Part shown: one piece after another, positions 3,367 to 20,839 of the stretch
Numbering within the stretch: position 1 is the first letter of the stretch
Layout: each line of letters begins with the position of its first letter
NCBI GenBank assembly: GCA_031265105.1
Contig: JAISDC010000082.1
Coordinates: forward strand, 1-20,839
Reading direction: 5' to 3'
Length of the DNA stretch: 20,839 nt
Source of the DNA: Verrucomicrobiales bacterium
GTDB taxonomy: Bacteria > Verrucomicrobiota > Verrucomicrobiia > Methylacidiphilales > JAAUTS01
The notes under the pieces: generated by a model
Seen by the model: only the letters and a program-made list of their open reading frames with translations
Database searches by the model: none
What the model was told of the DNA's origin: nothing
Made by a program: the position numbers and the translations under genes

Positions 3367-3371
3367 GCGGC

Positions 3372-5621: not shown

Positions 5622-5644
5622 CAAAGCGGTTGGGCACAGAGAGA

Positions 5645-5725: not shown

Positions 5726-5965
5726 GAATTGATGGCGGCAGCCCGCTGTTAGTCTCCAGGATTTGTCGTACTTGTCGCCGAAAGAGGCTTCGTAGTCGAG
5801 GTGGAGTTGATTGTCAGCGTCAGCGCCGGGGGCTCGGTAATCTATATCGCTGCGGCCGTAACCGGCGTAAATTCCCAGATAGAGGTCACTGTCAGTGGAC
5901 AAGGTAAACTTAGTTATTTGTTCTTGGTTAAAATAGTGGTTTGAGGCTTGGTTGCTTCCCGCGCG
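5726..5965 (-). pseudogene. start-less remnant of an autotransporter beta-barrel domain, paralogous to the 3' end of the autotransporter at 18264..20839
   Basis: Minus-strand frame reads ...QEQITKFTLSTDSDLYLGIYAGYGRSDIDYRAPGADADNQLHLDYEASFGDKYDKSWRL... The autotransporter reads KFTLSADSDLYLGVFAGYGRSDLDYRTPGTDGELNSYYGG. About 80/99 nt are identical between 5813..5911 (reverse complement) and 20388..20486. The remnant has no Met start and is bounded by in-frame stops (TGA at 5968..5966, TAA at 5725..5723). Confidence 0.45.
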
Positions 5966-6078
5966 TCACCCTGAGCGGAGGCGAAGGGGCGGGTTGGCTC
6001 AGCAATGGAGCGGGCCGGTCCTGCGACGCGCTACGCTTGCCCAAGATGGGCGGGGACGCCAGCATGATGAAAATATAC

Positions 6079-6109
6079 TTGCTAGTCGAGGTCACTGTCA
6101 GCGTAGCAT
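6079..6109 (+). promoter_or_regulatory. candidate copA promoter with a 19-bp spacer (TTGCTA - 19 - TAGCAT). This geometry is typical of MerR/CueR-type metal-responsive promoters.
   Basis: TTGCTA at 6079-6084, a 19-nt spacer, TAGCAT at 6104-6109. Partial dyad GTCACTGTCAG in the spacer. No cueR gene is visible in the window. Confidence 0.2.
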
Positions 6110-6182
6110 CGGAATCATGACTGCCGGCGGCCAGGAACATTTTGCCGTTTGCGGGGCGCGGGGGCGGTGGCATACTCGCGGC

Positions 6183-8366
<2,184 letters not shown>

Positions 8367-8373
8367 CCATCGT

Positions 8374-8454
8374 TTTTTTTCACCACGAAGACACCAAGAC
8401 ACCAAGCATGTTTTAAATAAAACTTCGTGTCTTGGTGTCTTTGTGGTGAAAAGA
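8374..8454. terminator. ~30-bp-arm inverted repeat (family A element pair). It forms a bidirectional intrinsic terminator between the convergent copA and rmuC genes.
   Basis: Left arm TTTTTTTCACCACGAAGACACCAAGACACCAAG (8374-8406), loop CATGTTTTAAATAAAA, right arm CTTCGTGTCTTGGTGTCTTTGTGGTGAAAAG (8424-8454). A T-run lies on one side and an A-run on the other. Confidence 0.6.
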
Positions 8455-8487
8455 CCGCCGCCGCTCCCCTCGCGCGCGCCTTGGCGG

Positions 8488-9627: not shown

Positions 9628-9766
9628 GCGCCGAGCTTACCCGCCGGCGCTCGCGCGGCAAGCCTGCCGTCATCCTTACAAAGAGATCATGGAGTTATTG
9701 GAGGAAGGGTTGCGGCAAGCAAAGGTACTGCTCCAATTCCTCCGTGCGCTCTTTGTAAAAAAGTAG

Positions 9767-11251
9767 TCACTGCTCCATGCTGGACAATTGCGCCAGCTTC
9801 ACGCGCAGCCGGAACCACAGGCTGCCCGCGTCATACCGGTTCAGGTCCTCGGCGTCAGCGGCGGCGAAATCCGCCGCGAGCATCCGCTCAACGTCAGCGG
9901 CGAAGGCACGGTCGTTGATGACGGCGGCCAGTTCGAAGTTCAGCATGAACGAGCGGTAGTCCGCGTTCACCGAGCCGATGATCGCCAGGTCATCGTCCGC
10001 AAGCAACACCTTCTGGTGCATGAAGCCGGGGCGGTAGCGGTAAATTTGCACGCCCGCGTCGCGCATGGCCGGATAATACGAGAACGACGACCACCACGGC
10101 AGCCAGTGGTCGGGCCGCGCCGGCAGCAGAATCCGCACCTCCACGCCGCGCAAGGCCGCCTGGGTCAGCGCCTGCCGCAGCACCGAGTCCGGCACGAAGT
10201 ACGGGCTGGCCAGCCACAGCCGGCGCCGGGCCGCCTGGATGATGGTGTCGTACACCGGCTGGCAGATGTTGCACGGGTCGGCCGGGCCGCTGGCGAAGAC
10301 GATGGCGGGGAGGGATGATTGATTATTTGTCGGTGGCTCAACCGCGGCGTCAGTGTCACCGTCAGCGGCAGTATTCAAATAATCAATAGAAAATAATCCA
10401 TTATCAATGCCCTCCGCATACCGCCAGTCCTCCGCGAAGTTCACCCGCAACGCGCGGATGGCCGGGCCGCGCAACTCCAGGTGCGTGTCGCGCCACGAGT
10501 CGAAGCGCGCGCCGCCGGTGAGGTACTCGTCCGCGGCATTCAGCCCGCCGAGGAACGCCACCGCGTCGTCCACCAACACCAGCTTGCGGTGGTTGCGGAA
10601 ATTGATTTGAAACCGCATCCCGACGCGGCGGTTGGTGACGAACCCGCTGACCTGCACGCCCGCGCGCCGCAGCGCGGCGAGGTAGCCGACGGTCATGTGT
10701 TTCGAGCCGATGCCGTCGTACAGCACCCAAGTCTTCACCCCGCGGGCGGCGGCGGCGATGAGCGCGTCCTTCAGCCGGTTGCCGAGCGCGTCGTCGCTGA
10801 TGATGAAGAACTGCACCGCCACCGTGCGGCGGGCGCGCCCGATGGCGTCCAGCATGGCGGCAAACGCGGCCTGGCCGTTGACCAGTAGCCGCGCCGTGTT
10901 GCCGCCGGTGGCCGGCAACCCGCGCAAGCGTTCCAGCAGCCGCGGCACATCGGCGTATTTCTCGGCAAAGTCAACGCGGGCCGCTGACATGGAGTGTTGC
11001 GCGGCGGCGAGGAGTCGCGCGAGGTCGCGGTCGGCGCCGTGGTCGGCGCGGAGGTAGCCGGAGAAGCGGGACTCGCCGAACACCAGGAACAGCGGGATGG
11101 CGACGAGGGGCAGAAAAAACAGCGCCAGGCCCCAGCCCACCGCCGCCTGCGGGGTGCGCGCGATGAACAGCGCCTTGGGAATCAGCAGCCAGCCGGTGAT
11201 TTGCACCACCGCCAGCAGCAGTGTTGGCACCCAATGCCAGTAAGTTTCCAT
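9767..11251 (-). CDS. cls: cardiolipin synthase (phospholipase D superfamily, two HKD motifs)
   Basis: Two N-terminal TM helices, then HRKLVLVDD and MHQKVLLADD...GSVNADYRS, which are HxK-x4-D motifs. Length 494 aa, as for ClsA. Confidence 0.85.
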   Translation of the reverse strand: METYWHWVPTLLLAVVQITGWLLIPKALFIARTPQAAVGWGLALFFLPLVAIPLFLVFGESRFSGYLRADHGADRDLARLLAAAQHSMSAARVDFAEKYADVPRLLERLRGLPATGGNTARLLVNGQAAFAAMLDAIGRARRTVAVQFFIISDDALGNRLKDALIAAAARGVKTWVLYDGIGSKHMTVGYLAALRRAGVQVSGFVTNRRVGMRFQINFRNHRKLVLVDDAVAFLGGLNAADEYLTGGARFDSWRDTHLELRGPAIRALRVNFAEDWRYAEGIDNGLFSIDYLNTAADGDTDAAVEPPTNNQSSLPAIVFASGPADPCNICQPVYDTIIQAARRRLWLASPYFVPDSVLRQALTQAALRGVEVRILLPARPDHWLPWWSSFSYYPAMRDAGVQIYRYRPGFMHQKVLLADDDLAIIGSVNADYRSFMLNFELAAVINDRAFAADVERMLAADFAAADAEDLNRYDAGSLWFRLRVKLAQLSSMEQ

Positions 11252-11313
11252 GCCGCCAGCCTAGCCGCTGACCGTGCCAAAGTCAGGCGGAATCGACGGC
11301 TTGGGTAATGCTG

Positions 11314-11394
11314 TTTTTTTACCACAAAGACACCAAGAATGAGCCGCCTTAACGCAAAGGGACCAAGGTGTAAAGGCGCAAAGGATTTTTTATA
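11314..11394. repeat. small intergenic repeat elements: one family A copy (TTTTTTTACCACAAAGACACCAAGAATGAG) abutting one family B copy (reverse-complement orientation: TTAACGCAAAGGGACCAAGGTGTAAAGGCGCAAAGGATTTTTTAT)
   Basis: Family A matches 8374-8406. Family B matches 18203-18245 and is partially present at 12533-12553. Confidence 0.55.
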
Positions 11395-11485
11395 GGGAGA
11401 GCATGGAGTTCATGGAGGTTTTTAAAAAAATAATCTCCCTGTTAAAAATTTCTTGGTTCCTTGGTGTTAATGAAGCTCCCGCCGG

Positions 11486-12445
11486 TCAGTTTGACCGGAT
11501 GAAGCTCGCGACTTTCTTCCCGACCAGTTCGCCCGCTTCGACGCGTAATTGGTCCAATTCGACGGTCGCGTCGCCGTGGTAGTTCTTCAACACGTCCGCC
11601 CACGCTTGCAGGCACAGGGCGGCGGTGAGGCGGTTGATGTCCAGCTTCCGGTCCTTCGCGATTTTTTGCAGGGCGCGGTATTGGTTGAAGGTGATGCCGG
11701 CGGGGCTGGGCGGGTAAATGTAGTAGTTGCCGGCGAACATCGCGGTGTTCGGCGCGTCGAGCAATTTTTGCTCCACCGCCGCCAGCTCGCCGTCGTCGAA
11801 ACCGAACGCGCGCAGGACGCCCTTCGCCATCAGCAGGTTGCCTTCCGGGTTCATGTGTACCCCGTCGGCGGTGAGGTAGCGCGGGCCGGGCGGCAGCGGC
11901 TTCAAGTATGCCCAGAAGTCGGCGCTGAGATCGGCCAGCGGCAGGTTTTTCTCCTTGGCCAGCGCGCGCAGAAAGTCGTTGTAGGCGGCGAGTTGCTGGT
12001 TGTTCGGGTTGTCAACTTCCTGAATCGGGGTAGCGGTGAGCAGCATGACTTTCACGCCGGCTTTGGTGGCCCGCTCGACGATGGCGGTGATGTTTTCCTG
12101 GTATTGCGGCAGTTCGACGCCGTTGGCGCCGTGCCAGACGTCGTTGACGCCGCAACTGAGCGTCATCCAGGTGGGCTTTTTCGCCAGCACGTCGCGCTCC
12201 AGTCGCTCCAGCATGTTGTTGGATTTGTGGCCGCCGATGCCCGCCGGGTAGGGGGTGACCTTGATGCCCGCCAGGGCCAGGCCGTCCACCACCAGATGCA
12301 CGTAGCCGCCGGTGTTGCCCCAGCCCTGCTGGGTGATGGAGTCGCCGAGGAAGGCGACGCTGTCGCCGTTTTTGATGAGCGGTTCCGCGTTGACGCTGAC
12401 GGTGGCCAGCAACGCGACGATTAACGAGGAGATGAAGGTTCTCAT
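11486..12445 (-). CDS. secreted SGNH/GDSL-family hydrolase (lipase/esterase-like), 319 aa
   Basis: Signal peptide MRTFISSLIVALLATVSVNA. GDS block (AFLGDSITQQGW) near the N-terminus. DGVH catalytic block near the C-terminus (ADGVHMNPEGN). The stop codon is embedded in the palindrome CCGGTCAgttTGACCGG (11478-11494). Confidence 0.75.
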   Translation of the reverse strand: MRTFISSLIVALLATVSVNAEPLIKNGDSVAFLGDSITQQGWGNTGGYVHLVVDGLALAGIKVTPYPAGIGGHKSNNMLERLERDVLAKKPTWMTLSCGVNDVWHGANGVELPQYQENITAIVERATKAGVKVMLLTATPIQEVDNPNNQQLAAYNDFLRALAKEKNLPLADLSADFWAYLKPLPPGPRYLTADGVHMNPEGNLLMAKGVLRAFGFDDGELAAVEQKLLDAPNTAMFAGNYYIYPPSPAGITFNQYRALQKIAKDRKLDINRLTAALCLQAWADVLKNYHGDATVELDQLRVEAGELVGKKVASFIRSN

Positions 12446-12632
12446 AGGCCCGGCATTGTGCCTCCCCGCGCGCGCGGTGTAAATGCCATAAATTCACGCG
12501 GTTGGCGCCGCCAGCCACGAATTTTAGTTAACAAAAAATCCTTCGCGCCTTGCTGCCTGCTTCGCAGGGGAATCAGAAGCGGCGTGCATTTGCCGCTTTA
12601 GTTGTTGCGTCTTCGTGGTCGGAGTTGCCCGG

Positions 12633-13856
12633 TCAACCGCACCGCGCCCCGTCCACCATGAACAACGCCGGCTTGCCCCGCGCGGCGGTCACCGCCAGAT
12701 ACGGATCCGTCCGCTCCGGCAGCGGGAACGCCACCAGGTCCGCCAGCGCGCCGCCGGCGATGACGCCCAGGACGCCCGCCTGGCCGAGTTGCGCGGCGGG
12801 CACGGTGGTCACCATGCGCAACCCTTCCTCGGCGCTGACGGCGGGGTGGGCGCGGCAGAACGCGCGCACCTCCGCGCGCAGATCCAGCACGTCGTTGCTC
12901 GCCAAACTGTCGGTGCCCAGCGACACGCTGCAACCGGCCGCGCGCAGGCGCTCGTACGGGAACCGCGCGCGGCCGAAGTAGGCGTGGCAGCGCGGGCAAT
13001 GCACCACCGGCAGCGGTTGCCGGCGCAGCAGCAGTTCATCGCGCGCCGACACGTGGTTCAAGTGCGCCACCAGGCATTGCGCGTCCAGCAGCCCGTCCGC
13101 CAGCAGGCGGGCCAGCGCGGAGTCCTGCCCGCAATCGCCCATGTCGCGGCCCGCGCCCCGGAAAAACTCGAACAGCGCGCCCCGCCGGTGCGCGAACATC
13201 TCTTGCTCCTCGTCGGACTCCGCGACGTGCGTGGTCAGCAACAGCCCCTCGCGCCGCGCCAGGCGCAGCGCGCGCCGGTATAACCACGCGCTGGCGGTGT
13301 ACGGCGCGTGCGGGCTGAGGCCGCCGCCGCCCGGCCACGCGCGGCTGCGCGCGAAGAACTCCAGCGCCAGCGTCAGCGCCTCGTCCGCCGCCGCCCGCGA
13401 GCGCGCGTCAATCAACTCGACGCACCACCACGTCCGCAACGGCGGGCGCGGCAGCAACGGCAGCACTTCGGGAAACGCCGCGATGTTGCACACCGTCGTG
13501 CAGCCGCTGTCGGCGAGTAATTGGAACCCGCGCGCGATGGCGGCCAGCCAGTCGCTGACGGTGAAGCTGCGCTTGAGGGTGTTGATGCGTTTTATCCACT
13601 CGGTGAACGGCAGCCCCGGCGGAATCGCGCCCTGGAGATTGGTGTAATCCAAATGGCAGTGCGCGTTAATCAACCCCGGCAGCAACACGCACCCCGGCAA
13701 GTCCAGCACCGTTTCGCCCGCCGCCGGCGTCAACCCCGCGCCGACCGCCGCGATGCGGTTGCCGCTGACCCTGACCGCCGCGCCCGCCAGCGGCGGCCCG
13801 GTCATCGTCAGCGTCATGGCGGGGCGGATGAGCATGGCCGTAATGCGCTCGCGCAT
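12633..13856 (-). CDS. metal-dependent amidohydrolase of the TRZ/ATZ, SsnA/MtaD-like deaminase family
   Basis: HxH metal-binding motif (LINAHCHLDYT). Downstream His/Asp ligands (TTHVAES, LVAHLNH, SLGTDS). Its start overlaps the def stop by 1 nt (TGATG). Confidence 0.7.
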   Translation of the reverse strand: MRERITAMLIRPAMTLTMTGPPLAGAAVRVSGNRIAAVGAGLTPAAGETVLDLPGCVLLPGLINAHCHLDYTNLQGAIPPGLPFTEWIKRINTLKRSFTVSDWLAAIARGFQLLADSGCTTVCNIAAFPEVLPLLPRPPLRTWWCVELIDARSRAAADEALTLALEFFARSRAWPGGGGLSPHAPYTASAWLYRRALRLARREGLLLTTHVAESDEEQEMFAHRRGALFEFFRGAGRDMGDCGQDSALARLLADGLLDAQCLVAHLNHVSARDELLLRRQPLPVVHCPRCHAYFGRARFPYERLRAAGCSVSLGTDSLASNDVLDLRAEVRAFCRAHPAVSAEEGLRMVTTVPAAQLGQAGVLGVIAGGALADLVAFPLPERTDPYLAVTAARGKPALFMVDGARCG

Positions 13857-14407
13857 CAGCGCGGCTGCGCGCGCAAACCGGCGAGTTTGTCCTTCAACTG
13901 CTCGCGCTCGGCGGCGCTCAGTTTGTCGATGAACAGCACGCCGTGCAAGTGGTCGAACTCATGCTGCACCGCGCGCCCCAGCAAGCCGCCCGCCTCAAAC
14001 TCGCGCGGTTGCAAATCCAGGTCCTGGTACCGCACCTTGACGCGGAAGCCGCGGTTGAGGTCGATGTTGATGCCGGGGAAGCTCAGGCAACCCTCGTTGT
14101 CGAGTTCCTTTTTCTTGGTGATTTCGATGTGCGGATTGATGAGCGTCAGCGGCATGATGCTTTGCACATCGGCCTCCTTGCCGTCCAGCCACAGGCGCGA
14201 CTTGCGCTTCGAGTCGGCGGGAATGTCAATCACCGCCAGTTGCAGCGCGCGCCCGACCTGCTGCGCCGCCAGCCCGACGCCCTCGGCTTTGCGCATCGTG
14301 TCGAGCATGTCCCGCGCGAGTTGGCGCAATTCCGGGGTTACTTTGCCGACCGTCGCGCCCCGCTGCCGCAGCACCGGGTCGCCGTATTTCACTATGGGTA
14401 AAATCAT
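13856..14407 (-). CDS. def: peptide deformylase
   Basis: Motif 1 GVGLAAQQVG, motif 2 EGCLSFPG, motif 3 QHEFDHLHG (HExxH). The ORF-track start at 14449 is a TTG. I prefer ATG 14407 (MILPIVKYGDPVL...), which matches Def N-termini. Confidence 0.85.
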   Translation of the reverse strand: MILPIVKYGDPVLRQRGATVGKVTPELRQLARDMLDTMRKAEGVGLAAQQVGRALQLAVIDIPADSKRKSRLWLDGKEADVQSIMPLTLINPHIEITKKKELDNEGCLSFPGINIDLNRGFRVKVRYQDLDLQPREFEAGGLLGRAVQHEFDHLHGVLFIDKLSAAEREQLKDKLAGLRAQPR

Positions 14408-14454
14408 AAATGCGCAGCCAGCATACAATATCACCGCGCGTGTTGCCAACAGGC

Positions 14455-15927
14455 TTATTGCTGTCCGCTGGCCGGGGGCGCTGACGGTGCCGGCGCGGGT
14501 TGCGCGGGCGGCGCCGGTTCAGCGTCAGCGGCGGGGGTGCCGAGGACGGACGGGAGTTTGAGGCCGACGTTGTTGAGCAATTCGTGCAGCGGCGGCAGCG
14601 CCGTCGCCAGCTTGTTCAAAAAGTTCGCGGTGCTGGTGCCGCCGTTCGCGCCGCCGTTGTCCCAGACGACGACTTTGTCGAATTTGATGTTCTTGATCGC
14701 CTCGGTTTGCGCGCCGACGAGCACGGGCATTTGTTCGACCAGCAGCAGATTGATTGCCAGCGCCGGGTTCGCGCCGGCGGCTTTGGTCAGGCGCTCGAAG
14801 CCCTCGGCGCGGCCGTTCAGCGCGGCCTTGATGCCGTCGGCCTCGGCGAGGCGCAGTTGCCGCAAGCCGTCGGCCTCCGCGGTTTTGACGGCGAGCAAGC
14901 CGTCGGCCTCGCCCTGCTTGGTTTTGCGCACGGCGTCGGCGGCGCCCTCGGCGGTTTTCACGCGCACGGCGGCGTCCGCCTCGGCCTGGATGACTTGCTG
15001 CGATTTGGTCTGGCGCGCCGGCACCAGCACGTCGGCCTCGTACGTCGCCTCGGTCACGCGGGCGCGCGCCATCTCGGCCTCCTGTTTGGCGAGCGCGGAG
15101 TTTTTCGCGGTCAGCGCGACGGCGACTTGCTCGGCGGTCTCGGCGAGTTTGCGCGCCTCGGCCTCGCGCGTGCGCCGCGCGGCGTCACTGTCAGCGATGG
15201 CGACCAGCGAGGTGTTCTCGCCCTGCCGCGTCTCGGCTTGCAGCGCGGCGACGGTCACGGCCTGCTCCATGCGCGCGCGGGCGGCGCCGACCGCGCCGTC
15301 GCGGTCCGCCTCGGCGACGCGGATGCTGGCGGTGTTGATGCGCTCGGCGGCGACTTCCTTGCCCAGCGAGTCGATGTAGCCGACGTCGTCGGTGATGTCG
15401 CGGATGTTGACGTTAATGAGGCGCAGGCCGATTTTTTCCAACTCGACGGAAATGGAGTCGCGCACGCTGACCAGCAGTTTGTCACGGTCAGCGTTGATTT
15501 CCTCAATCGAGAGCGAGGCGATGACCTGGCGCATCTGGCCGGTGATGATGTCGAGCGCGCTGGACATGATTTGCGGCAGCGTGAGGCCGAGCAGGCGCTC
15601 CGCGGCGTTCTGCATGATTTCCGGCTCGGTGGACAGGCCGATCATGAACGTGCTCGGCACGTCCACGCGGATTTTTTGCAACGACAGCGCGTCCTCCAGG
15701 TTGACCTCGACGCTGACGGGGCGCAAGTCCATGTATTGATAACCTTGGATGACCGGCCACACAAACGAGCCGCCGCCGTGGATGCAGCGCGCGCCGCGGC
15801 CGCCGGCGACTTTGCCGTAGATGACGAGGATGCGGTCGGACGGGCATTTTTTGTAGCACTTCAACAGTGACAGCATGGTCACGAAAAACAACAGTGCGAC
15901 GGCGATGATGGCGATGGCGAATGACAT
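14455..15927 (-). CDS. flotillin-like SPFH/band-7 protein (YqiK/FloT-like)
   Basis: N-terminal TM segment, SPFH core, and a long Ala/Glu-rich coiled coil (AEAEARKLAETAEQ...AEADGLRQLRLAEADGI). AAGGAA Shine-Dalgarno sequence 7 nt upstream of the ATG. Confidence 0.85.
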   Translation of the reverse strand: MSFAIAIIAVALLFFVTMLSLLKCYKKCPSDRILVIYGKVAGGRGARCIHGGGSFVWPVIQGYQYMDLRPVSVEVNLEDALSLQKIRVDVPSTFMIGLSTEPEIMQNAAERLLGLTLPQIMSSALDIITGQMRQVIASLSIEEINADRDKLLVSVRDSISVELEKIGLRLINVNIRDITDDVGYIDSLGKEVAAERINTASIRVAEADRDGAVGAARARMEQAVTVAALQAETRQGENTSLVAIADSDAARRTREAEARKLAETAEQVAVALTAKNSALAKQEAEMARARVTEATYEADVLVPARQTKSQQVIQAEADAAVRVKTAEGAADAVRKTKQGEADGLLAVKTAEADGLRQLRLAEADGIKAALNGRAEGFERLTKAAGANPALAINLLLVEQMPVLVGAQTEAIKNIKFDKVVVWDNGGANGGTSTANFLNKLATALPPLHELLNNVGLKLPSVLGTPAADAEPAPPAQPAPAPSAPPASGQQ

Positions 15928-15981
15928 ATGGTTCCTTGGTTGGTTCGGTTGGTTGAGTTGATTGGGTTGGGGTAAAATTGC

Positions 15982-16554
15982 TTACTCACCGTCAGCGAGC
16001 GGCTCGACGGCGACGCCGGTGCCCTCCAGCCGCAGCACCCGCACCTCCGTGCCGAACGGCGCCGCGCGGTCGCTGACGTTGAACGCCTTGACGGAAACTT
16101 TGCGCCCGCCGCTGACGACGGTGATTTCACCCGCGCCCGCGCCGCGCGGCGGCAGCGGCAAATACACGGTGCCGCTGGCGCCGACAGTTTGCGTCAACTG
16201 GAACGTGCCGTCCTCCGCCAGCCGCGCGAACTGGCGCATCAGCCACACCAGCAGCGCCGCCAGCGCGAACCCGACCAGCGCCGCGAGCAGGGTCGCGGAC
16301 ACGGCGCCGAGGCCGAGTTGCAAACAGCACAAGCCGCCCCAGCCGCTGCCGGTGGCGAACGCGGTGATGGCCTTGAACGAAAACCAGTGTACGCCGGCGT
16401 CACCGTCAGCGTCGGGCGAGTCGAAATCACCGTCAGCGCCGAACAAAGCCATGCCGCCCTGGGCGACGAGCATGGCGGTGCCGAGGATGCCGAGCGTCCA
16501 AAAAATCCGCGCGGCCAGCTCCAGCCCGTCCCACCATTCGACGATAGCATTCAT
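15982..16554 (-). CDS. NfeD-family membrane protein (short YuaF-like form), partner of the downstream flotillin
   Basis: N-terminal hydrophobic helices and a C-terminal OB-fold-like block (GEITVVSGGRKVSVKAFNVSDRAAPFGTEVRVLRLEGTGVAVEPL). This is the conserved nfeD-SPFH operon arrangement. The ORF-track start 16593 is a TTG; I prefer ATG 16554 (MNAIVEWW...). Confidence 0.7.
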   Translation of the reverse strand: MNAIVEWWDGLELAARIFWTLGILGTAMLVAQGGMALFGADGDFDSPDADGDAGVHWFSFKAITAFATGSGWGGLCCLQLGLGAVSATLLAALVGFALAALLVWLMRQFARLAEDGTFQLTQTVGASGTVYLPLPPRGAGAGEITVVSGGRKVSVKAFNVSDRAAPFGTEVRVLRLEGTGVAVEPLADGE

Positions 16555-16676
16555 GCGGGGCCAAAGGTAACGCGCCGGCCCGCCGCCTAACAAGCAAAAT
16601 CAGCGCCAGGTGGAAATTTTCGGCGCCGCGGCGCGCTGCCTTTGCGGTCATTGCTTGCCGGCCCGCCTTTGGCAGT

Positions 16677-16717
16677 AAAAAAAAAAACTTGCGGTCATCC
16701 GGCTATTGTAATACAGT
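16677..16717 (+). promoter_or_regulatory. A11 homopolymer tract immediately upstream of a candidate promoter (TTGCGG - 17 - TACAGT) that reads toward the repeat/autotransporter locus
   Basis: A x11 at 16677-16687. TTGCGG at 16689-16694, a 17-nt spacer, TACAGT at 16712-16717. Confidence 0.25.
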
Positions 16718-16837
16718 CGCGCCCCGTTGCCGCAAACGGCTGATAGTGAAAGCTCCGCCAGCAGGGGGGCTTAAGCCAAAGCGGAAAAGCGGCAACTCCT
16801 TGAAGATGATTGACCTGGGCCATAACCGCAGGACGCC

Positions 16838-16894
16838 GCGCTCACGCGCTCACGCGCTCACGCGCTCACGCGCTCACGCGCTCACGCGCTCACG
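16838..16894. repeat. perfect octanucleotide tandem repeat (GCGCTCAC) x7
   Basis: Seven head-to-tail copies run from 16838 to 16893, preceded by a partial unit. They lie in the divergent intergenic region between nfeD and the 42-bp repeat locus. The unit length is not a multiple of 3. Confidence 0.9.
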
Positions 16895-17059
16895 CGCTCA
16901 CGGTATGACTCTTGCCCTGATTCCTTAATTTCCCCGCCAGTTTTTACCCTTTTCATTCCCCATGCGGTAACATTCCGGCAGGATGCCACCCCGTCACGAT
17001 TAGCGTCACCTCCCGCACGGTATCATACGATTCCTACCTGGCGAGAGCCGTTTCATGCA

Positions 17060-17377
17060 GTGCAGGAAGCGCATACTGCATTGCATGATTTGCCTCCTGC
17101 GGCGCGGGAACCGAATACTGCAACGCATGACGCGCATCCTGCAACGCAGGAGTCGAATACTGCACTGCATGATTCACCTCCTGCGGCGCGGGAACCGCAT
17201 ACTGCAACGCATGACGCGCATCCTGCAATGCAGGAGTCGAATACTGCGCCGCATGATTCACCTCCTGCGGTGCGGGAAGCGCATACTGCAACGCATGACA
17301 CACCTCCTGCCGAGCAGGATTACCCACTTTTGGCGGCTGTGTGGCCGCCATTAAACCAACCCCAAAGGAACCCATGA
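17060..17377 (+). CDS. possible 105-aa repeat protein (14-aa HD/P/T-rich repeats) encoded by the 42-bp array. Coding status and strand are uncertain.
   Basis: GTG start at 17060. Its TGA stop overlaps the ATG of the next gene (ATGA at 17374-17377), which suggests translational coupling. The unit length is a multiple of 3. A minus-strand alternative exists (ATG 17351 to stop 17034: MAATQPPKVGNPARQEV, then a 14-aa repeat alternating PAPQEVNHAAQYST / PALQDARHALQYAV). Neither candidate has a Shine-Dalgarno sequence. Confidence 0.25.
   Translation: MQEAHTALHDLPPAAREPNTATHDAHPATQESNTALHDSPPAAREPHTATHDAHPAMQESNTAPHDSPPAVREAHTATHDTPPAEQDYPLLAAVWPPLNQPQRNP
17073..17324. repeat. 42-bp tandem repeat array, about 6 units, with two alternating unit types forming an 84-bp higher-order repeat
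   Basis: Units start with ATACTGCA at 17073, 17115, 17157, 17199, 17241 and 17283. Odd units read ...GCATGATTYRCCTCCTGCGGYGCGGGAASCGM. Even units read ...AACGCATGACGCGCATCCTGCAAYGCAGGAGTCGA. Units contain short stem-loops such as CCTGCaacGCAGG. All six frames are open across the array. Confidence 0.9.
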
Positions 17378-18129
17378 ATAGAAACCAACATGCAGTCAGC
17401 AACATCAGCGTCAAAAAATACATCCACAAAACCTGGGACGGTATTGACGACTTCTTCACCCAATACGGCGACAACCTCGTCAACGTCCAGACCAAAACCG
17501 ACCCCGGTCTCGCCGACGCCGACATCGCCAATGTCAAGGAAACCACCGCCGCCTACGGCAAATTGAACCAAGCCATTGACGAAGTGGAAAGACTCCTCGC
17601 CGCCCTGCGCGCCCTGCGCATCCAACTCCTCACCCAGCAAACTATGGACCCCGTCCGCGTCCCCCTCATCCAACCCCTCACCACCCTCCTTGCCGCCATC
17701 GAAGGCAAACGCGGCGGCTTGCTCTGGCAAGAAGACCGCCTCACCGACCGCATCTTCCGCAGCCCCAGATGCACCCAGGAAGACTACGAAATGCTCGGCA
17801 TCGTTTACAAACCCAACACTTCAGCCCCCATTGATAACCTCATCGGCAAACTCTACGCCGTGTTTGACGGCGGCAAAGTTCCGATCCATTGGACCCTCCC
17901 GCGCGGCTACCACAACGCCCGCCTCACCGCCAGCACCAACCACGGCGAATGGGTACTACTCTACGAAGGCAGCGAAAGCCACTTCATCGACGCGCGCCCC
18001 ATCCCCGCCATCTCCGAAATCCGCTCCTACAAACTCGAAATCATGGAAACCGGCAAACCCATCGGCAAACCCGCCATCGACAAAATCCTCGTCGGCCAAG
18101 ACATCTCCGTCGAAGAAACCAAACTCTAA
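17374..18129 (+). CDS. hypothetical protein, 251 aa. No domain recognised; no signal peptide.
   Basis: AAAGGAA Shine-Dalgarno sequence 4-5 nt upstream of ATG 17374. Protein-like composition (MNRNQHAVSNISVKKYIHKTWDGIDDFF...). Codon usage has more A/T-ending codons than the core genes and resembles the adjacent autotransporter. A long inverted-repeat terminator follows it. Confidence 0.6.
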   Translation: MNRNQHAVSNISVKKYIHKTWDGIDDFFTQYGDNLVNVQTKTDPGLADADIANVKETTAAYGKLNQAIDEVERLLAALRALRIQLLTQQTMDPVRVPLIQPLTTLLAAIEGKRGGLLWQEDRLTDRIFRSPRCTQEDYEMLGIVYKPNTSAPIDNLIGKLYAVFDGGKVPIHWTLPRGYHNARLTASTNHGEWVLLYEGSESHFIDARPIPAISEIRSYKLEIMETGKPIGKPAIDKILVGQDISVEETKL

Positions 18130-18140
18130 CTAGCCTCATT

Positions 18141-18248
18141 AACGCAAAGACGCAAAGGAACAAAGTAACGCAAAGATTTTTGTTAATTGAAAAACCAAAC
18201 CAAAAAAATCTTCGCGCCTTTGCCCCTTTGTTCCTTTGCGTTAATGCA
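18141..18248. terminator. family B inverted-repeat element pair forming a long hairpin after the 251-aa gene
   Basis: Left arm ATTAACGCAAAGACGCAAAGGAACAAAGTAACGCAAAG, then ATTTTTG. Right arm AAAAAATCTTCGCGCCTTTGCCCCTTTGTTCCTTTGCGTTAAT. Homologous copies are at 11343-11394 and 12533-12553. Confidence 0.55.
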
Positions 18249-18263
18249 GCTCAAAAAAACTTT

Positions 18264-20839
18264 ATGAAAACCTCCAACATGAAAACACGAAAACTAACCC
18301 TGATACTAACCCTCCTCTGCGCCCTCAGCGTCTCCGCGTTGAACATCTTCGCGGAAAACAAAATCGTCAATACCGGCACCGTGGTGGAATCCGGCAGTAC
18401 CTACGCCGCCTCCACCAATCAGTCGGCCCTGACGGTCAGCGGCAGCGGGACGCTGTACGAGGGCACTAACCTTACTTTGTCCAGCACCGAGACCAACCAG
18501 CATGGCGTCTTCGTCAACACCCAAGGCGCGCTATCGTTACGTGACAGCACGGTTTTCACTTCCGCCACTGGCGCTTACGGCATTGCGTTGACCACCACCT
18601 CGTCCGCCAGCCTGGAACGTGTCGCGGTCACGGTCAGCGAAGCGTTTTCGCATGGCATCTATATGTTGAACTCCAAGCTGTCCGTGACCGACGCGACAGT
18701 GGTGATTTCGGCATCCAATAGGAACGGTCATTTCGACGGAATATACATCGGCAACACCAGCGAAGCTGATTTGACAAATGTGAGCGTAGAATTACGGGGC
18801 GACCAGACCAACGGCATCAGCATCCTCAACACCGCCACCGACAAAAGCACCGTCACGGCCACCGGTATCAACATTGCCGCGCAAGGCGAACTTGCCGACG
18901 GTCGGGCCAATGTCAGCGGTGTCACCGTAGAAGGTAACGCGGACCTGCAAATGCGCGATTTTTTAGTCACGGTGCGCGACGGTAATGCGGGCGTGAACAC
19001 TTGGACGAACCCTATACTACGGGTTGACGAGTTTGTGACGCTGCGCAGCGGCACCATCATTATGATTGATAGCGGCGCCGGGATTAATGTCGGCGGCAAC
19101 GGTAATCGCTATGTGGCATTGCACGATGTGGCTATCAGCGCGAGCGGCGAGGACACCCATGCCATTCTTATGGACACGCGCGGGTTGGACATTGATGACA
19201 AAGTTCTGCTGGTTGACGGCGGCAAGTTCATCGCCGAAAACGGGGCGGCGCTCCGGGTGGGGCTGTTCGGCGAGACATCCGAGCTCAATGCCACGCAGTC
19301 CGCGGGCGCCAACTATACCGTCACCATCACCGGCAGCGCCGCCCTCAGCGGCACGGCGGCCATGGAATTCGGCACCACCGCCATTGCCCCCAGCGGCACG
19401 GCCTACGAACTGGTCAACCACGCCCGCATAACCGTGGCGGATGGCTCCACCCTCACCGGTGCCACCAACATCCACGGCAACTCCGACGTGAATATAGAAC
19501 TCACCGACAACTCCGCCCTGACCGGCGACCTTACCGCCAGCGGCTCGTCCAACACCACCCTCAGCGGCAGCAACGGCGCCACCATCACCGGCACCGTCAG
19601 CGGCAACGATAACGCCGTCATCGACCTCACCGTCAGAGGCCCCGGCAGCACCATCATCAGTGACATTAACCAAAACGACGACGCAGCCGTCACCATCACC
19701 CTCGATAACAGCGCCACCGGCCAAGGCGGCTACCACGGCGGCAACCTCATCACCGGCAGCGATAGCACCTGGACTTTTGACAAGGACAGCCACGGCAACT
19801 ACGGCGAAAACAATGGCACTTGGAACATCGGCGACTACGAAGTCATCTTCGATAACATGACCCACACCGGCACCGTTAACATCAGCGTCAACACCGACAC
19901 CGGCGACGGCGGCTCTATCACTGTGGATACCGCTGACGGTGAAGGCACCGTCCACATCGACACCACCGGCAACGGTAAACTCAACCCCAACGACGTACTC
20001 CCCGGCGTCGTCACCGGCGACGGCACGGAACACTGGCAATGGGATCCCATCGACTGGGGCATCGACACCATCATCAAAGACGGCGACCACTTCATCAAAC
20101 AAGGCACCAGCCCCGCCGGCGCAGAATTGAACAGCAGCGTAGCCATCCAACAAGCCAGGTGGTTCGCGCAGCAAAACAGCCTGCTCAAACGCATGGGTGA
20201 CCTCCGCTTTTCGTCATCCCGTCAACTCGTCACCTCGTCGTCTGACAAAGCCGTCACCCTCAGCGCTGCCAACCTGATCGAAAACATCTGGCTCAGAAGC
20301 TACGGCCAACAATTAAACGTCGGCAGTAAAGTATCAGGCAAAGCCTACGAACAACTCATCTACGGCGTGGACTTGGGCACTGACCATAAGTTCACCTTGT
20401 CCGCTGACAGTGACTTATATCTGGGCGTCTTCGCCGGTTACGGCCGCAGCGACCTCGACTACCGCACCCCCGGCACTGACGGTGAACTCAACTCCTACTA
20501 CGGCGGCCTCTACGCCACGTGGTTACACAGCAGCGGCCTCTACATCGACGCTACCGTCAAAGCCGCCAGCGTGGACAACAATCTAAAAGCTCCCTACAGC
20601 GGCAGTCAAATCACCGCCAACTACAGTGATGTGAACCTCGGCGGCAGCATCGAAATCGGGAAGAAGTTCACCTTCGCTGATGATTGGTTCATCGAACCCC
20701 AGTTTCAAGTCAACTACCTCCACATCCTCGCCGAGGACTATCAAGCCGGCCCCATGAGCATCACCGCCAGCGACCTCGACGCCCTCCAGTTCAGAATCGG
20801 CAGCGTATTCGGCCGCACCCTCAAGCTCGCCAACGGCGG
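18264..20839 (+). CDS. classical (type Va) autotransporter: signal peptide, Gly/Thr/Asn-rich beta-helical passenger, C-terminal beta-barrel. Partial: runs off the window end.
   Basis: MKTSNMKTRKLTLILTLLCALSVSALNIFA signal peptide. The passenger has repetitive beta-helix-like tracts (TLSGSNGATITGTVSGNDNAVIDLTV...). The junction reads AIQQARWFAQQNSLLKRMGDLRF...NIWLRSYGQQ, followed by barrel strands (YLGVFAGYGRSDLDY...GGLYATWLH...GGSIEIGKKF...). No stop occurs before 20839, hence it is absent from the ORF track. Confidence 0.85.
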   Translation, partial: MKTSNMKTRKLTLILTLLCALSVSALNIFAENKIVNTGTVVESGSTYAASTNQSALTVSGSGTLYEGTNLTLSSTETNQHGVFVNTQGALSLRDSTVFTSATGAYGIALTTTSSASLERVAVTVSEAFSHGIYMLNSKLSVTDATVVISASNRNGHFDGIYIGNTSEADLTNVSVELRGDQTNGISILNTATDKSTVTATGINIAAQGELADGRANVSGVTVEGNADLQMRDFLVTVRDGNAGVNTWTNPILRVDEFVTLRSGTIIMIDSGAGINVGGNGNRYVALHDVAISASGEDTHAILMDTRGLDIDDKVLLVDGGKFIAENGAALRVGLFGETSELNATQSAGANYTVTITGSAALSGTAAMEFGTTAIAPSGTAYELVNHARITVADGSTLTGATNIHGNSDVNIELTDNSALTGDLTASGSSNTTLSGSNGATITGTVSGNDNAVIDLTVRGPGSTIISDINQNDDAAVTITLDNSATGQGGYHGGNLITGSDSTWTFDKDSHGNYGENNGTWNIGDYEVIFDNMTHTGTVNISVNTDTGDGGSITVDTADGEGTVHIDTTGNGKLNPNDVLPGVVTGDGTEHWQWDPIDWGIDTIIKDGDHFIKQGTSPAGAELNSSVAIQQARWFAQQNSLLKRMGDLRFSSSRQLVTSSSDKAVTLSAANLIENIWLRSYGQQLNVGSKVSGKAYEQLIYGVDLGTDHKFTLSADSDLYLGVFAGYGRSDLDYRTPGTDGELNSYYGGLYATWLHSSGLYIDATVKAASVDNNLKAPYSGSQITANYSDVNLGGSIEIGKKFTFADDWFIEPQFQVNYLHILAEDYQAGPMSITASDLDALQFRIGSVFGRTLKLANG

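What the first reader, a model, noticed from the sequence alone, without database searches (positions are those of the whole stretch)
17374..20839. Unknown 251-aa protein immediately upstream of a classical autotransporter, both with atypical codon usage
The 251-aa ORF (no signal peptide, no motif I recognise) and the autotransporter use many more A/T-ending codons (aaa, acc, atc, ttc) than copA, uup or cls in the same window.

Together with the upstream repeat switches, this looks like a horizontally acquired, possibly phase-variable adhesin/virulence module. The cytoplasmic 251-aa protein could be a dedicated accessory (modifier, chaperone or regulator).

The passenger is Gly/Thr/Asn-rich and beta-helical, with a standard RMGDLR junction and barrel.
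Basis: partly seen in the sequence, partly recalled or inferred. Interest (0 to 1): 0.55.

Follow-up and report, generated by a model that had tools for sequence, protein, structure and literature searches.

The report
Phase-variable autotransporter cassette with orphan partner
The unknown 251-aa protein and the autotransporter are real and are one copy of a many-copy cassette in uncultured Verrucomicrobia that an upstream 8-base repeat appears to switch on and off; this is a new variant of a familiar way of varying surface proteins, not a recently imported island.

Summary
Observation partly confirmed. ORF 17374-18129 (251 aa, no signal peptide, no Pfam/NCBIfam/PHROG/PADLOC hit) sits directly upstream of a type Va autotransporter (18264 to the contig end).

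The codon anomaly is real but misdescribed. It is depletion of G at third positions (G3 0.08 against 0.33-0.52 in nine neighbouring genes), replaced by C and A. It is not A/T-ending usage.

The 251-aa protein belongs to an orphan family found only in a few Verrucomicrobiales/Opitutaceae MAGs, with 7 to 9 or more copies per genome. An autotransporter follows it in at least 9 loci. Its model shows a helical N-domain plus an Fn3-like C-domain.

Every copy that carries an 8-nt repeat upstream has the same layout: an ATG, then the 8-nt repeat, a conserved peptide motif, and a 21-nt periodic array that differs in each copy. One reading frame runs stop-free through all of this and ends within -29 to +5 nt of the 251-aa start codon (ATGA overlap in the window). 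In the window the repeat (8 units) leaves this leader ORF out of frame (OFF); 7 or 10 units would restore it.

The cassette occupies the same site in a related MAG, with 95-96% identical flanks but a mosaic interior. This argues for recombining contingency loci rather than recent horizontal acquisition. How the leader gates downstream expression (translational coupling or Rho polarity) and what the 251-aa protein does biochemically are inferred, not shown.

The parts
16679..16717 (+). A11 tract followed by promoter-like hexamers TTGCGG-N17-TACAGT, 88 nt upstream of the leader ATG
   Evidence: Found by regex scan and visible in the sequence. The same hexamers are present in orthologue L003, where the tract is A9. 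The strict sigma-70 scan found nothing here, so promoter function is inferred.
16806..16928 (+). Leader ORF as it stands now (OFF): 40 aa, MIDLGHNRRTP(RSRAHALT)n...HGMTLALIP*
   Evidence: An ATG lies 29-45 nt upstream of the SSR in all 8 loci where that sequence is available.
16837..16902 (+). Octanucleotide SSR (CGCGCTCA), 8.25 units, 100% perfect
   Evidence: TRF. There are 7 units at the orthologous locus L003, at least 12 in L008 and 7 in L011. Other paralogues use CCCTCGCT, CCTCGCTA or CCCCAGCT, in 5 to 13 units.
16903..16970 (+). Conserved leader motif, read in the long frame as YDSCPDSLISPPVFTLFIPHA
   Evidence: This is the only frame free of stops in six paralogues. In the core TGC CCN GAY TCN YTA ATT TCC, 6 of 7 variable columns are synonymous. 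The 100 nt after the SSR are 34% C and 16% G.
17041..17330 (+). 21-nt periodic array (21/42/84-nt periods, about 13 units), each unit built around a short palindrome such as CTGCaacGCAG. It lies inside the long leader frame.
   Evidence: TRF places the array at 17062-17310 and the register table is. The RNA of 16925-17400 folds at -178.8 kcal/mol, z -5.8. There is no similarity to the array at the orthologous locus.
16901..17377 (+). Long (ON) frame of the leader ORF. It has no stop from the SSR to TGA at 17375-17377, which overlaps the o251 ATG as ATGA.
   Evidence: With 7 or 10 SSR units the ORF from ATG 16806 becomes 187 or 195 aa and ends at 17377.
17332..17349 (+). Small G+C hairpin (GGCGGC tgtgt GGCCGCC) near the 3' end of the leader frame. 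It is followed by a C/A-rich stretch and AAGGAA (17365-17370).
   Evidence: Visible in the sequence and paired in the MFE fold. Read by eye from the sequences, GC-rich inverted repeats lie at the same place in L008, L002, L004, L010 and L011; these were not folded.
17374..18129 (+). o251: a 251-aa protein with no signal peptide, made of an N-terminal helical domain (aa 13-141) and a C-terminal Fn3-like beta-sandwich (aa about 155-240)
   Evidence: AF2 model, pLDDT 82.9. The only fold matches are to Fn3. The family has 15 members at 90% clustering, all labelled 'hypothetical'. dN/dS is 0.17-0.42 for close pairs.
18132..18251 (+). Long imperfect hairpin (REP-like) between o251 and the autotransporter, with no U-tail
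   Evidence: (-48.4 kcal/mol, z -9.8). It is 95-97% identical in paralogues L003 and L015, and related nested hairpins occupy the same spacer in most loci. There is no Rfam family for it.
18264..20839 (+). Classical (type Va) autotransporter, 858 aa present and cut by the contig end. Signal peptide aa 1-30; variable N-terminal passenger (nt 18345-19520); RMGDLR at nt 20190-20207; beta-barrel from about nt 20286.
   Evidence: The syntenic orthologue is complete at 845 aa and carries PF13229 plus PF03797. Identity to the orthologue, read from the alignment, is 27% over the N-terminal passenger, 49% over aa 193-857 and about 85-90% across the barrel; nucleotide mosaic.

Best explanation
The finding covers the two structural genes of one copy of a multicopy contingency (phase-variable) cassette. 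The host is an uncultured Verrucomicrobiales bacterium. The window is the whole 20.8-kb contig of the MAG with locus tag LBK71, and o251 is LBK71_03770.

The cassette, in order:
1. A promoter-like region.
2. A leader ORF that starts at ATG 16806.
3. An 8-nt SSR inside that ORF.
4. A conserved peptide motif (CPDSLIS..FT..IPH).
5. A 21-nt periodic array that is specific to each locus and is translated in the same frame.
6. A stop codon at or just before the o251 start codon.
7. o251.
8. A long REP-like hairpin.
9. An autotransporter whose N-terminal passenger is hypervariable.

Shown by sequence analysis:
- The repeat unit is 8 nt, so the copy number sets the leader frame. With 8 units, as in the window, translation stops after 40 codons at 16928 (OFF). 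With 7 or 10 units it runs 187 or 195 codons and ends on the TGA of ATGA at the o251 start.
- Copies in a genome are in different states, and they exchange segments by recombination.

Inferred mechanism:
- Only in-frame leader translation brings ribosomes to the o251 start, allowing termination-reinitiation coupling.
- In-frame translation also keeps the unusually C-rich, G-poor transcript covered, so Rho cannot terminate it. o251 and the co-transcribed autotransporter would then be expressed together in the ON state only.
- The G3 depletion would then be a selected RNA-level or translational property of the cassette, not a mark of foreign origin.

o251 itself is a conserved cytoplasmic partner of the autotransporter. 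It has a helical domain and an Fn3-like domain and no catalytic signature. The most likely role is a protein-binding accessory that holds, targets or regulates its cognate autotransporter before export. This role is inferred from gene linkage alone.
For: Family and linkage:
- The family has only 15 cluster representatives among 5.8 billion proteins. All are about 250 aa and all come from Verrucomicrobiales/Opitutaceae MAGs.
- An exhaustive profile search of 1.84 billion representatives adds only four remote full-length relatives. A second profile search adds none.
- One MAG holds at least 9 copies. The window's own MAG holds at least 7.
- An autotransporter homologue lies directly downstream in L003/L005, L004, L002/L009, L006, L008, L010, L014 and L015. 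The same holds for the remote relative in L025.

Leader ORF:
- In 9 of 9 SSR-bearing loci, the frame that carries the conserved motif has 0 stops in 1195 codons. The other two + frames have 130 stops in 2389 codons.
- The leader-frame stop lies at +1, -27, -4, (fused), -18, -29, -18, +1 and +5 nt from the o251 ATG.
- The conserved core shows 6 of 7 variable columns synonymous, and it is the only frame free of stops.
- In four loci a TTGAC[ACG]-N16/17-TAYYTT pair ends exactly 7 nt before the leader ATG.

SSR variability:
- The orthologous locus has 7 units against 8.25 in the window, within flanks that are 95-96% identical.
- States among paralogues: 2 ON (L006, L013) and 6 OFF.

Mosaicism:
- Window against syntenic L003: flanks 95-96% identical, array with no similarity, o251 region 85%, N-terminal passenger with no similarity, C-terminal AT 74%.

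Composition:
- G3 is 0.08-0.11 in o251 paralogues.
- pS stays at or below 0.35 even at 40% amino-acid identity.
- C/G is about 2 across o251 and in the 100 nt after the SSR.

Precedents in the literature:
- Rho attenuation that depends on an upstream ORF, and Rho-mediated phase variation (PMC12360218).
- SSR-associated autotransporter families and an octanucleotide SSR upstream of hmwA (PMC3309571).
Against: - There are no expression, read-level or experimental data. ON and OFF states are deduced from consensus MAG assemblies.
- o251 has its own Shine-Dalgarno-like AAGGAA, and its start is not clearly sequestered in the predicted fold. It could therefore be translated independently of the leader.
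- The same DNA repeat unit is read in different frames in L008/L004 and in L002.
- GC3 of the leader frame is low (0.39-0.75), and its product is predicted to be disordered. The array's amino-acid sequence may therefore be irrelevant, or the array may act as DNA or RNA.
- In remote relatives the array is not an ORF (L025) or is open with normal codon usage only on the opposite strand (L027).
- A second promoter-like hexamer pair directly abuts the SSR in four loci. If used, it would start transcripts downstream of the leader ATG.
- Two family members have no autotransporter downstream (L001, L026).
- Whether C- and A-ending codons are simply the preferred codons of highly expressed genes in this organism could not be tested.
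- Rho dependence is pure inference.
Confidence: 0.6

Rival explanations
1. The SSR and the 21-nt array are non-coding regulatory nucleic acid rather than a translated leader. The array would be a tandem set of short palindromes or hairpins. It could act as a structured 5' UTR (as in the hmw1A SSR hairpin processed by RNase III) or as a phased set of protein-binding sites (21 bp is two helical turns). SSR length would tune this element, and the open frame would be a side effect.
For: - Each unit carries a short inverted repeat, and the array RNA is strongly structured (z -5.8).
- Related units are read in different frames in different paralogues.
- The array of L025 has stops in all frames and irregular unit lengths, yet keeps CCCC-N7-GGGG hairpins.
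- In the Bacteroidota relative L027 the array lies upstream of the AT-rich spacer that precedes the gene. Only the opposite strand there has an ORF with a start codon and normal GC3.
- TTGACA-N18-TARRCT hexamers end 0-2 nt before the SSR in four loci.
- The leader product is predicted to be disordered.
- Precedent: PMC12721329.
Against: - The leader frame has 0 stops in 1195 codons across 9 loci, against 5.4% stop codons in the other two + frames. It is always contiguous with the motif frame and always ends within -29 to +5 nt of the o251 ATG.
- Variation in the conserved motif is synonymous.
- No alternative start codon lies between the SSR and the motif.
- A conserved ATG sits 29-45 nt before the SSR, and in four loci a promoter-like pair ends 7 nt before that ATG.
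- The palindromes differ completely between paralogues, even though the o251 proteins are 60-90% identical. This argues against a shared DNA-binding partner.
Confidence: 0.25
2. One reading: a horizontally acquired virulence or adhesin island whose foreign origin explains the atypical codon usage.
For: - GC content is lower (0.57-0.59 against 0.61-0.72) and third-position usage is atypical.
- The local GC skew is opposite to the rest of the contig.
- One paralogue (L004) lies next to an IS200-type Y1 transposase and low-GC genes.
Against: - The cassette occupies the same site between the same housekeeping genes in a related MAG.
- There are 7 to 9 or more copies per genome, and the family is unknown outside this clade.
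- The window has no tRNA, and none of its ORFs scanned against Pfam matched an integrase family.
- GC3 (0.76) lies at the low end of the neighbours' range.
- The G3 depletion is conserved among paralogues that are only 40% identical, with low synonymous divergence. The bias is therefore maintained, not decaying.
- The orphan copy L001 has lost most of the bias.
Confidence: 0.07
3. The codon bias is ordinary translational selection. C-ending and A-ending codons would be the optimal codons of this organism, and the cassette genes would simply be very highly expressed when ON. No RNA-level or Rho-related meaning would be needed.
For: - The bias consistently favours NNC in four-fold and Y-ending families, and favours AAA, GAA and CAA.
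- Synonymous sites are strongly constrained.
- Surface proteins are often abundant. Preference for C-ending codons in highly expressed genes of GC-rich bacteria is established knowledge, not tested here.
Against: - None of the roughly 35 neighbouring genes sampled comes close (third-position skew -0.38 to +0.37 against -0.72 to -0.78), but none of them is a ribosomal or other reference gene.
- The hypervariable passenger segment of the same gene lacks the bias.
- Most copies are in the OFF state.
Confidence: 0.3

Closest known systems
SSR-controlled (contingency) autotransporter and adhesin families, e.g. the 10-member trimeric autotransporter family and octanucleotide-repeat hmwA loci of Haemophilus influenzae biogroup aegyptius (PMC3309571); the Neisseria and Haemophilus phase-variable autotransporters and the chlamydial Pmp family are cited from my own knowledge
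   Same: - Many paralogous autotransporter loci in each genome.
- A simple-sequence repeat whose unit is not a multiple of 3.
- Different repeat numbers at orthologous loci.
- Variable passenger and conserved barrel.
- Paralogues in mixed ON and OFF states.
   Different: - The SSR is not in the autotransporter gene or its promoter. It lies in a separate upstream leader ORF of about 190 codons, two genes away.
- A conserved non-secreted 250-aa gene lies between the switch and the autotransporter.
- Each copy carries its own 21-nt array.
- The host is an uncultured Verrucomicrobiales bacterium, not a known pathogen.
hmw1A 5'-UTR SSR hairpin processed by RNase III (PMC12721329)
   Same: - A tandem repeat is transcribed upstream of a type V secreted adhesin gene.
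- The leader contains long, stable RNA structure.
   Different: - There the 7-nt repeat acts in an untranslated leader, and expression is graded with repeat number.
- Here the 8-nt repeat lies inside an ORF with a three-state frame logic, and the structured part is a separate 21-nt array.
- RNase III involvement was not tested.
uORF-dependent Rho attenuation and Rho-mediated phase variation (fim and flgB invertible switches; review PMC12360218)
   Same: The proposed logic is the same: whether a leader is translated or exposed decides whether Rho terminates before the structural genes. The RNA downstream is C-rich and G-poor (C/G about 2).
   Different: - The stochastic input would be SSR slippage that changes the uORF frame, not DNA inversion or a metabolic signal.
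- Nothing about Rho was tested here.
Autotransporter genes with a dedicated upstream cytoplasmic modifier (aah-aidA, tibC-tibA heptosyltransferases; from my own knowledge)
   Same: A gene for a protein with no signal peptide lies immediately upstream of the autotransporter gene, apparently in the same operon.
   Different: o251 has no glycosyltransferase fold or motif. Its only recognisable part is an Fn3-like domain. It has no homology to Aah or TibC in any library searched.

Membership tests
Classical (type Va) autotransporter | N-terminal Sec signal peptide | tested here: met
   The protein begins MKTSNMKTRKLTLILTLLCALSVSALNIFA|ENK, read from the translation. No predictor was run.
Classical (type Va) autotransporter | C-terminal 12-stranded beta-barrel translocator (Pfam PF03797 / TIGR01414) | tested here: met
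   PF03797 E 9.3e-32 at aa 675-857, matching model positions 1-187 of 255 because the contig ends. TIGR01414 E 2.5e-33. The complete domain is present in orthologue L003.
Classical (type Va) autotransporter | Beta-helical passenger | tested here: inconclusive
   There is no Pfam beta-helix hit in the window protein. PF13229 is found in the orthologue L003 and in the L025 relative. No structure was predicted for the passenger.
SSR contingency locus (translational phase variation) | Perfect tandem repeat, with a unit not divisible by 3, lying inside an ORF downstream of its start codon | tested here: met
   (CGCGCTCA)8.25 at 16837-16902 lies 31 nt after ATG 16806.
SSR contingency locus (translational phase variation) | A change of one unit switches between a truncated and a full-length product | tested here: met
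   In silico, 6, 8, 9 and 11 units give 28-48 aa, while 7 and 10 units give 187 and 195 aa.
SSR contingency locus (translational phase variation) | Repeat number is polymorphic between strains and within populations | tested here: inconclusive
   Between related MAGs: 8.25 against 7 units at the orthologous locus. Within-population heterogeneity needs the reads and is not testable with these tools.
Fibronectin type III domain (o251 C-terminal half) | Seven-stranded beta-sandwich of Fn3 topology | tested here: met
Fibronectin type III domain (o251 C-terminal half) | Match to the Pfam fn3 sequence model | tested here: not met
   There is no PF00041 hit at E up to 1. The relation is seen only through profile hits to Fn3/GH85_C repeats in long proteins.
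Recently acquired genomic island | Absent from the same site in close relatives; flanked by tRNA or mobility genes | tested here: not met
   The cassette is present at the syntenic site in L003. The window has no tRNA, and none of the window ORFs scanned against Pfam matched an integrase or transposase family.
Rho-dependent polarity switch | rut-like C-rich, G-poor untranslated RNA downstream of the OFF-state stop, with termination that depends on Rho | tested here: inconclusive
   Composition fits: C 34% and G 16% in the 100 nt after the SSR, and C/G 1.98 across o251. Rho dependence is not testable with these tools.

The most novel reading that the evidence does not exclude
The conserved unit may not be the autotransporter at all. 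It may be a three-part module: a 21-nt periodic palindrome-bearing array, a helical-plus-Fn3 protein of about 235-250 aa, and the gene for a secreted surface protein. The module recurs with a type V autotransporter in Verrucomicrobiota (this family and L025). It recurs with a type IX-secreted S8 protease in a Bacteroidota relative (L027). The array is hypervariable between copies and between samples. On this reading o251 and its array form a previously undescribed system in which the protein acts on, or is controlled by, its own locus-specific repeat array. That action could be as RNA or DNA binder, or through the heptad-repeat product. The system would set or diversify expression of surface proteins across phyla.
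Probability: 0.2. Interest if true: 0.75.

Novelty: new variant of a known kind. Interest (0 to 1): 0.6.

Why it matters
- Phase-variable surface-protein families are textbook biology for a handful of pathogens. Here the same strategy appears in uncultured Verrucomicrobia, in a different design.
- In this design the slippery repeat sits in a long leader ORF that ends on the start codon of a conserved orphan gene, upstream of the autotransporter.
- If the gating model holds, it links SSR slippage to translational coupling or Rho polarity. It would also offer an explanation for an extreme, selected depletion of G at synonymous sites.
- The work defines a new orphan protein family (helical plus Fn3) that is tied to secreted proteins in two phyla and could be studied experimentally.
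- For annotation, the gene callers used on these MAGs placed spurious opposite-strand ORFs over the arrays and missed the leader ORF.

Tried and rejected
- Pfam, NCBIfam, PHROGs and PADLOC on o251 and its remote relatives gave nothing above threshold.
- The PDB sequence profile search gave nothing.
- Rfam gave only sub-threshold miRNA-hairpin look-alikes, which were rejected.
- The metagenome DNA-pattern scan for the conserved leader segment returned 9 chance hits with no o251, autotransporter or SSR.
- Exact-protein look-ups for the window protein and for LBK71 paralogues are not on record. SSR heterogeneity across samples could therefore not be examined.
- A CsrA-type GGA-hairpin array was considered and rejected, because the arrays of most paralogues lack GGA.
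- The o251-AT hairpin as an intrinsic terminator was rejected, because it has no U-tail.
- A minus-strand heptad ORF, as called by the MAG annotators, was rejected for this family. Minus frames are closed in L010 (longest 41 codons) and do not include the conserved motif. It remains the better reading for the Bacteroidota relative L027.
- o251 as a DNA-binding regulator of its own array was judged unlikely. By my reading of the sequence the protein is acidic, and o251 sequences that are 60-90% identical sit next to unrelated palindromes.
- AF2 on the leader product gave a low-confidence, disordered model from a single sequence.
- The literature search found no paper on these MAGs or on this family.

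Full report
**What is at the coordinates**

The window is a G+C-rich contig of about 62% GC. It carries uup, copA, rmuC, cls, a GDSL lipase, an amidohydrolase, def, a Band-7 protein and an NfeD-like gene. After the NfeD-like gene (15982-16593, minus strand) comes a 780-nt stretch with no housekeeping gene.

After a 134-nt spacer, an ORF starts at 18264 and runs off the contig end.

The second ORF is a classical autotransporter:
- It has a Sec-type signal peptide.
- RMGDLR lies at residue 643.
- Pfam PF03797 matches residues 675-857 (E 9e-32) and TIGR01414 matches at E 2.5e-33.

o251 has no hydrophobic N-terminus and no significant hit in Pfam, NCBIfam, PHROGs or PADLOC. An exact look-up shows that the window is the 20,839-nt contig of a 'Verrucomicrobiales bacterium' MAG with locus tag LBK71. 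o251 is LBK71_03770.

**The codon claim**

The anomaly is real but was described wrongly.

| Gene or segment | G3 | C3 | A3 |
|---|---|---|---|
| o251 | 0.083 | 0.675 | 0.179 |
| 3' half of the autotransporter | 0.094 | 0.70 | 0.109 |
| Nine neighbouring genes | 0.33-0.52 | 0.32-0.55 | 0.03-0.16 |

- GAA, AAA, CTC, GCC and CCC replace GAG, AAG, CTG, GCG and CCG.
- GC3 (0.76-0.77) lies at the low end of the neighbours' range of 0.75-0.92.
- The bias is patchy within the autotransporter. Segment 18534-19340 has G3 of 0.27-0.32.
- Over positions 1-16000 the + strand is G-rich whichever way the genes point. The cassette's C over G on that same strand therefore runs against the local replication-type skew.
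- The same third-position skew (-0.72 to -0.78) is seen in o251 paralogues on other contigs, whose neighbours range from -0.38 to +0.37. An orphan copy without an autotransporter (L001) has largely lost it.
- Synonymous divergence between paralogues stays at 0.23-0.35 even when the proteins are only 40% identical.

The bias is therefore actively maintained, not a fading foreign signature.

**The o251 family**

- A word-indexed search of 5.8 billion proteins finds 15 cluster representatives. All are about 250 aa, all are labelled 'hypothetical', and all come from three or four Verrucomicrobiales/Opitutaceae MAGs.
- An exhaustive profile search of 1.84 billion representatives adds only fragments, Fn3 repeats of long proteins, and four remote full-length relatives of 233-283 aa.
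- A second profile search adds nothing.
- One GTDB representative MAG (Gx481_bin192) holds at least nine copies. The window's own MAG holds at least seven.
- The AlphaFold model (pLDDT 82.9) has an N-terminal helical domain, including a long hairpin of helices 21-41 and 48-87, and a C-terminal beta-sandwich.
- No catalytic motif is conserved in the remote relatives.
- dN/dS of 0.17-0.42 between close pairs shows a functional gene.

**Linkage to autotransporters**

tblastn with the window's autotransporter shows a homologue starting 50-230 nt after the o251 stop in L003/L005, L004, L002/L009, L006, L008, L010, L014 and L015.

The remote relative P0027 (about 21% identity) is likewise followed by an autotransporter-type passenger. 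That passenger has the same N-terminal signature and a PF13229 beta-helix.

Exceptions:
- L001/L007 is followed by an ABC transporter on the other strand.
- L026 has no autotransporter downstream.

A Bacteroidota relative (P0025) sits directly upstream of an S8 protease that carries a type IX secretion tail.

It is not met. The protein is narrowly distributed and linked.

**The upstream region is part of the same unit**

Upstream of every o251 copy for which sequence is available, the elements below recur in the same order. The orphan copy L001 keeps only the array and has no SSR.

1. An A-tract and promoter-like hexamers.
   - In the window these are TTGCGG-N17-TACAGT at 16689-16717, preceded by A11. 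The orthologue has A9.
   - In four other loci TTGAC[ACG]-N16/17-TAYYTT ends exactly 7 nt before an ATG, the spacing expected for a leaderless mRNA.
2. That ATG (16806 in the window).
3. A perfect 8-nt tandem repeat, 29-45 nt after the ATG.
   - The unit is CGCGCTCA in the window. Other copies use CCCTCGCT, CCTCGCTA or CCCCAGCT, in 5 to 13 units.
4. A conserved segment of about 65 nt.
5. A 250-350-nt array with a strict 21-nt register. Its unit sequence, built around a short palindrome, is different in every paralogue.
6. A small G+C hairpin, a C/A-rich stretch with a Shine-Dalgarno-like AAGGA or AGGAG, and the o251 ATG.

**Evidence that this region is a translated leader ORF**

- In all nine SSR-bearing loci, one + frame runs from the SSR through the conserved segment and the array without a stop. 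The count is 0 stops in 1195 codons, against 130 in 2389 codons in the other two + frames.
- That frame terminates at +1, -27, -4, (fused in frame), -18, -29, -18, +1 and +5 nt relative to the o251 ATG.
- In the window the stop is the TGA of ATGA at 17374-17377.
- The conserved segment reads [Y/H]D.CPDSLIS..(V/S)FT..IPH in exactly that frame in eight loci.
- In the core TGC CCN GAY TCN YTA ATT TCC, six of seven variable columns are synonymous. It is the only one of six frames with no stop in six paralogues.
- No start codon lies between the SSR and the motif, so translation must begin upstream of the SSR.

**The switch**

Because the unit is 8 nt, the copy number sets the frame.
- With the window's 8 units, the ORF from ATG 16806 ends after 40 codons at 16928.
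- With 7 or 10 units it is 187 or 195 codons and ends on the o251 start.
- The syntenic locus in the related MAG has 7 units against 8.25 here, inside flanks that are 95-96% identical.
- Among the loci where the state can be read, two are in frame (L006, L013) and six are out of frame. This fits random occupancy of three frames.

These are the formal properties of a contingency locus. Heterogeneity within a population could not be examined, because only consensus assemblies are available.

**Mosaic structure argues against recent horizontal acquisition**

Alignment of the window to the syntenic contig L003:

| Window segment | Identity to L003 |
|---|---|
| Flanks up to 16967, the end of the conserved leader motif | 95-96% |
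| Array, 16968-17400 | none detectable |
| o251, the hairpin and the first 80 nt of the autotransporter | 85% |
| N-terminal passenger, 18345-19520 | none detectable in DNA; 27% in protein |
| C-terminal passenger and barrel | 74% in DNA; barrel about 85-90% in protein |

- The cassette is therefore old at this site and has been reshuffled, most simply by exchange among the many paralogues.
- The window has no tRNA, and none of its ORFs scanned against Pfam matched an integrase or transposase family.
- A 33-codon relic of an autotransporter barrel (76% identical to residues 709-741) lies in the uup-copA spacer at 5813-5911 on the minus strand. This is further evidence of past cassette turnover.

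**How it most likely works**

Shown:
- the gene order;
- the frame logic of the SSR;
- termination of the leader frame at the o251 start;
- the family-wide linkage of o251 to an autotransporter.

Inferred:
- Only in-frame leader translation delivers ribosomes to the o251 start (termination-reinitiation).
- In the OFF state, the 450 nt of untranslated leader plus the C-rich, G-poor o251 message invite Rho-dependent termination. C/G is about 2 across o251, and the 100 nt after the SSR are 34% C and 16% G. Termination there would silence o251 and the autotransporter together.
- Rho attenuation that depends on an upstream ORF, and Rho-based phase switches, are documented elsewhere (PMC12360218).
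- The autotransporter is probably co-transcribed. The spacer holds no promoter-like site. It holds a long REP-like hairpin without a U-tail (-48.4 kcal/mol, z -9.8). Such a hairpin would more plausibly set relative mRNA stability than terminate transcription.

For o251 itself I commit to a cytoplasmic protein-binding accessory of its autotransporter, acting in holding, targeting or regulation. This rests on gene linkage and on the Fn3 fold only.

**Why the mechanism remains uncertain**

- o251 has its own ribosome-binding site, and its start is not clearly sequestered in the predicted fold.
- The array's DNA unit is read in different frames in related paralogues (L008 and L004 against L002).
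- GC3 of the leader frame is atypically low, and its product is predicted to be disordered.
- In remote relatives the array is not an ORF (L025), or it is open with normal codon usage only on the opposite strand (L027, 181 aa, GC3 0.13).
- L027 is also a variable-number repeat between samples.
- A second promoter-like pair abuts the SSR in four loci.

These points keep alive the rival that the array works as structured RNA or as phased DNA sites. The hmw1A 5'-UTR repeat hairpin cleaved by RNase III is a precedent (PMC12721329). They also support the more novel reading: that array, helical-Fn3 protein and secreted-protein gene together form a module conserved across phyla.

**Comparison and verdict**

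The closest known systems are SSR-controlled families of autotransporter adhesins. One example is the ten trimeric autotransporters and the octanucleotide-repeat hmwA loci of H. influenzae biogroup aegyptius (PMC3309571).

This locus works like them, and the autotransporter is a bona fide type Va member. The differences are:
- the switch is placed in a long leader ORF;
- that ORF ends on the start codon of an orphan accessory gene;
- each copy has its own 21-nt array;
- G is strongly and selectively depleted at synonymous sites;
- the host is an uncultured Verrucomicrobiales bacterium.

I rate it a new variant of a known kind, with interest 0.6.

Noticed in passing
window 5813-5911 (-), in the uup-copA spacer: A 33-codon fragment (KFTLSTDSDLYLGIYAGYGRSDIDYRAPGADAD) is 76% identical to residues 709-741 of the window's autotransporter barrel. 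It looks like a relic of another cassette.
   Followed up: partly
window 11340-11391 (cls-GDSL spacer); also L003 1544-1701 and L001/L007: Partial copies (about 85% identity over about 52 nt) of the palindromic element that forms the o251-autotransporter hairpin. The hairpin therefore belongs to a dispersed REP/MITE-like family, and several nested types occupy the same spacer in different paralogues.
   Followed up: partly
window 16679-16689; L003 about 7304-7312: A homopolymeric A11 tract lies immediately upstream of the -35-like TTGCGG. It is A9 at the orthologous locus. It may be a second, transcriptional, length-variable element.
   Followed up: no
L004 6820-6849, L002 7467-7496, L010 955-984, L013 218-247: A second promoter-like pair, TTGACA-N18-TA(A/G)(A/G)CT, lies inside the leader ORF and ends 0-2 nt before the SSR. 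It is conserved in four loci. Whether it is a real internal promoter or a coding constraint (L/V-D-N-A) is unresolved.
   Followed up: partly
L027 5317-5862 (-), 6001-6702 (+), 6853-8451 (+); L028, L029: In a low-GC (32%) Bacteroidota contig, a remote o251 relative is preceded by two 21-nt arrays. These form a 181-aa heptad-repeat ORF on the opposite strand. The relative is followed by an S8 protease with a type IX secretion tail. The number of array units differs between samples.
   Followed up: partly
o251 paralogues: window 17374-18126 against L013 719-1465 and others: Synonymous divergence saturates at only 0.23-0.35 even at 40% protein identity, which gives apparent dN/dS above 1. Synonymous sites in this family are under unusually strong constraint.
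   Followed up: partly
L004 1613-6574: One paralogous cassette lies next to an IS200-type Y1 transposase gene and a block of low-GC3 genes (GC3 0.24-0.43). That copy borders foreign DNA.
   Followed up: no
L003 7539-7988 (-), L004 7075-7533 (-), L002 7703-8029 (-), L001 7667-7945 (-), L026 408-752 (-): The gene calls recorded for these contigs place 92-152-aa ORFs on the opposite strand across the arrays. They do not call the leader ORF on the + strand. For the Verrucomicrobiales copies these calls are probably annotation artefacts of the quasi-palindromic repeats.
   Followed up: yes
L008 2-1258: In this paralogue the leader frame has no stop before o251. The SSR, motif, array and o251 therefore form one continuous open frame. 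The contig begins inside the SSR, so the start is unknown.
   Followed up: no
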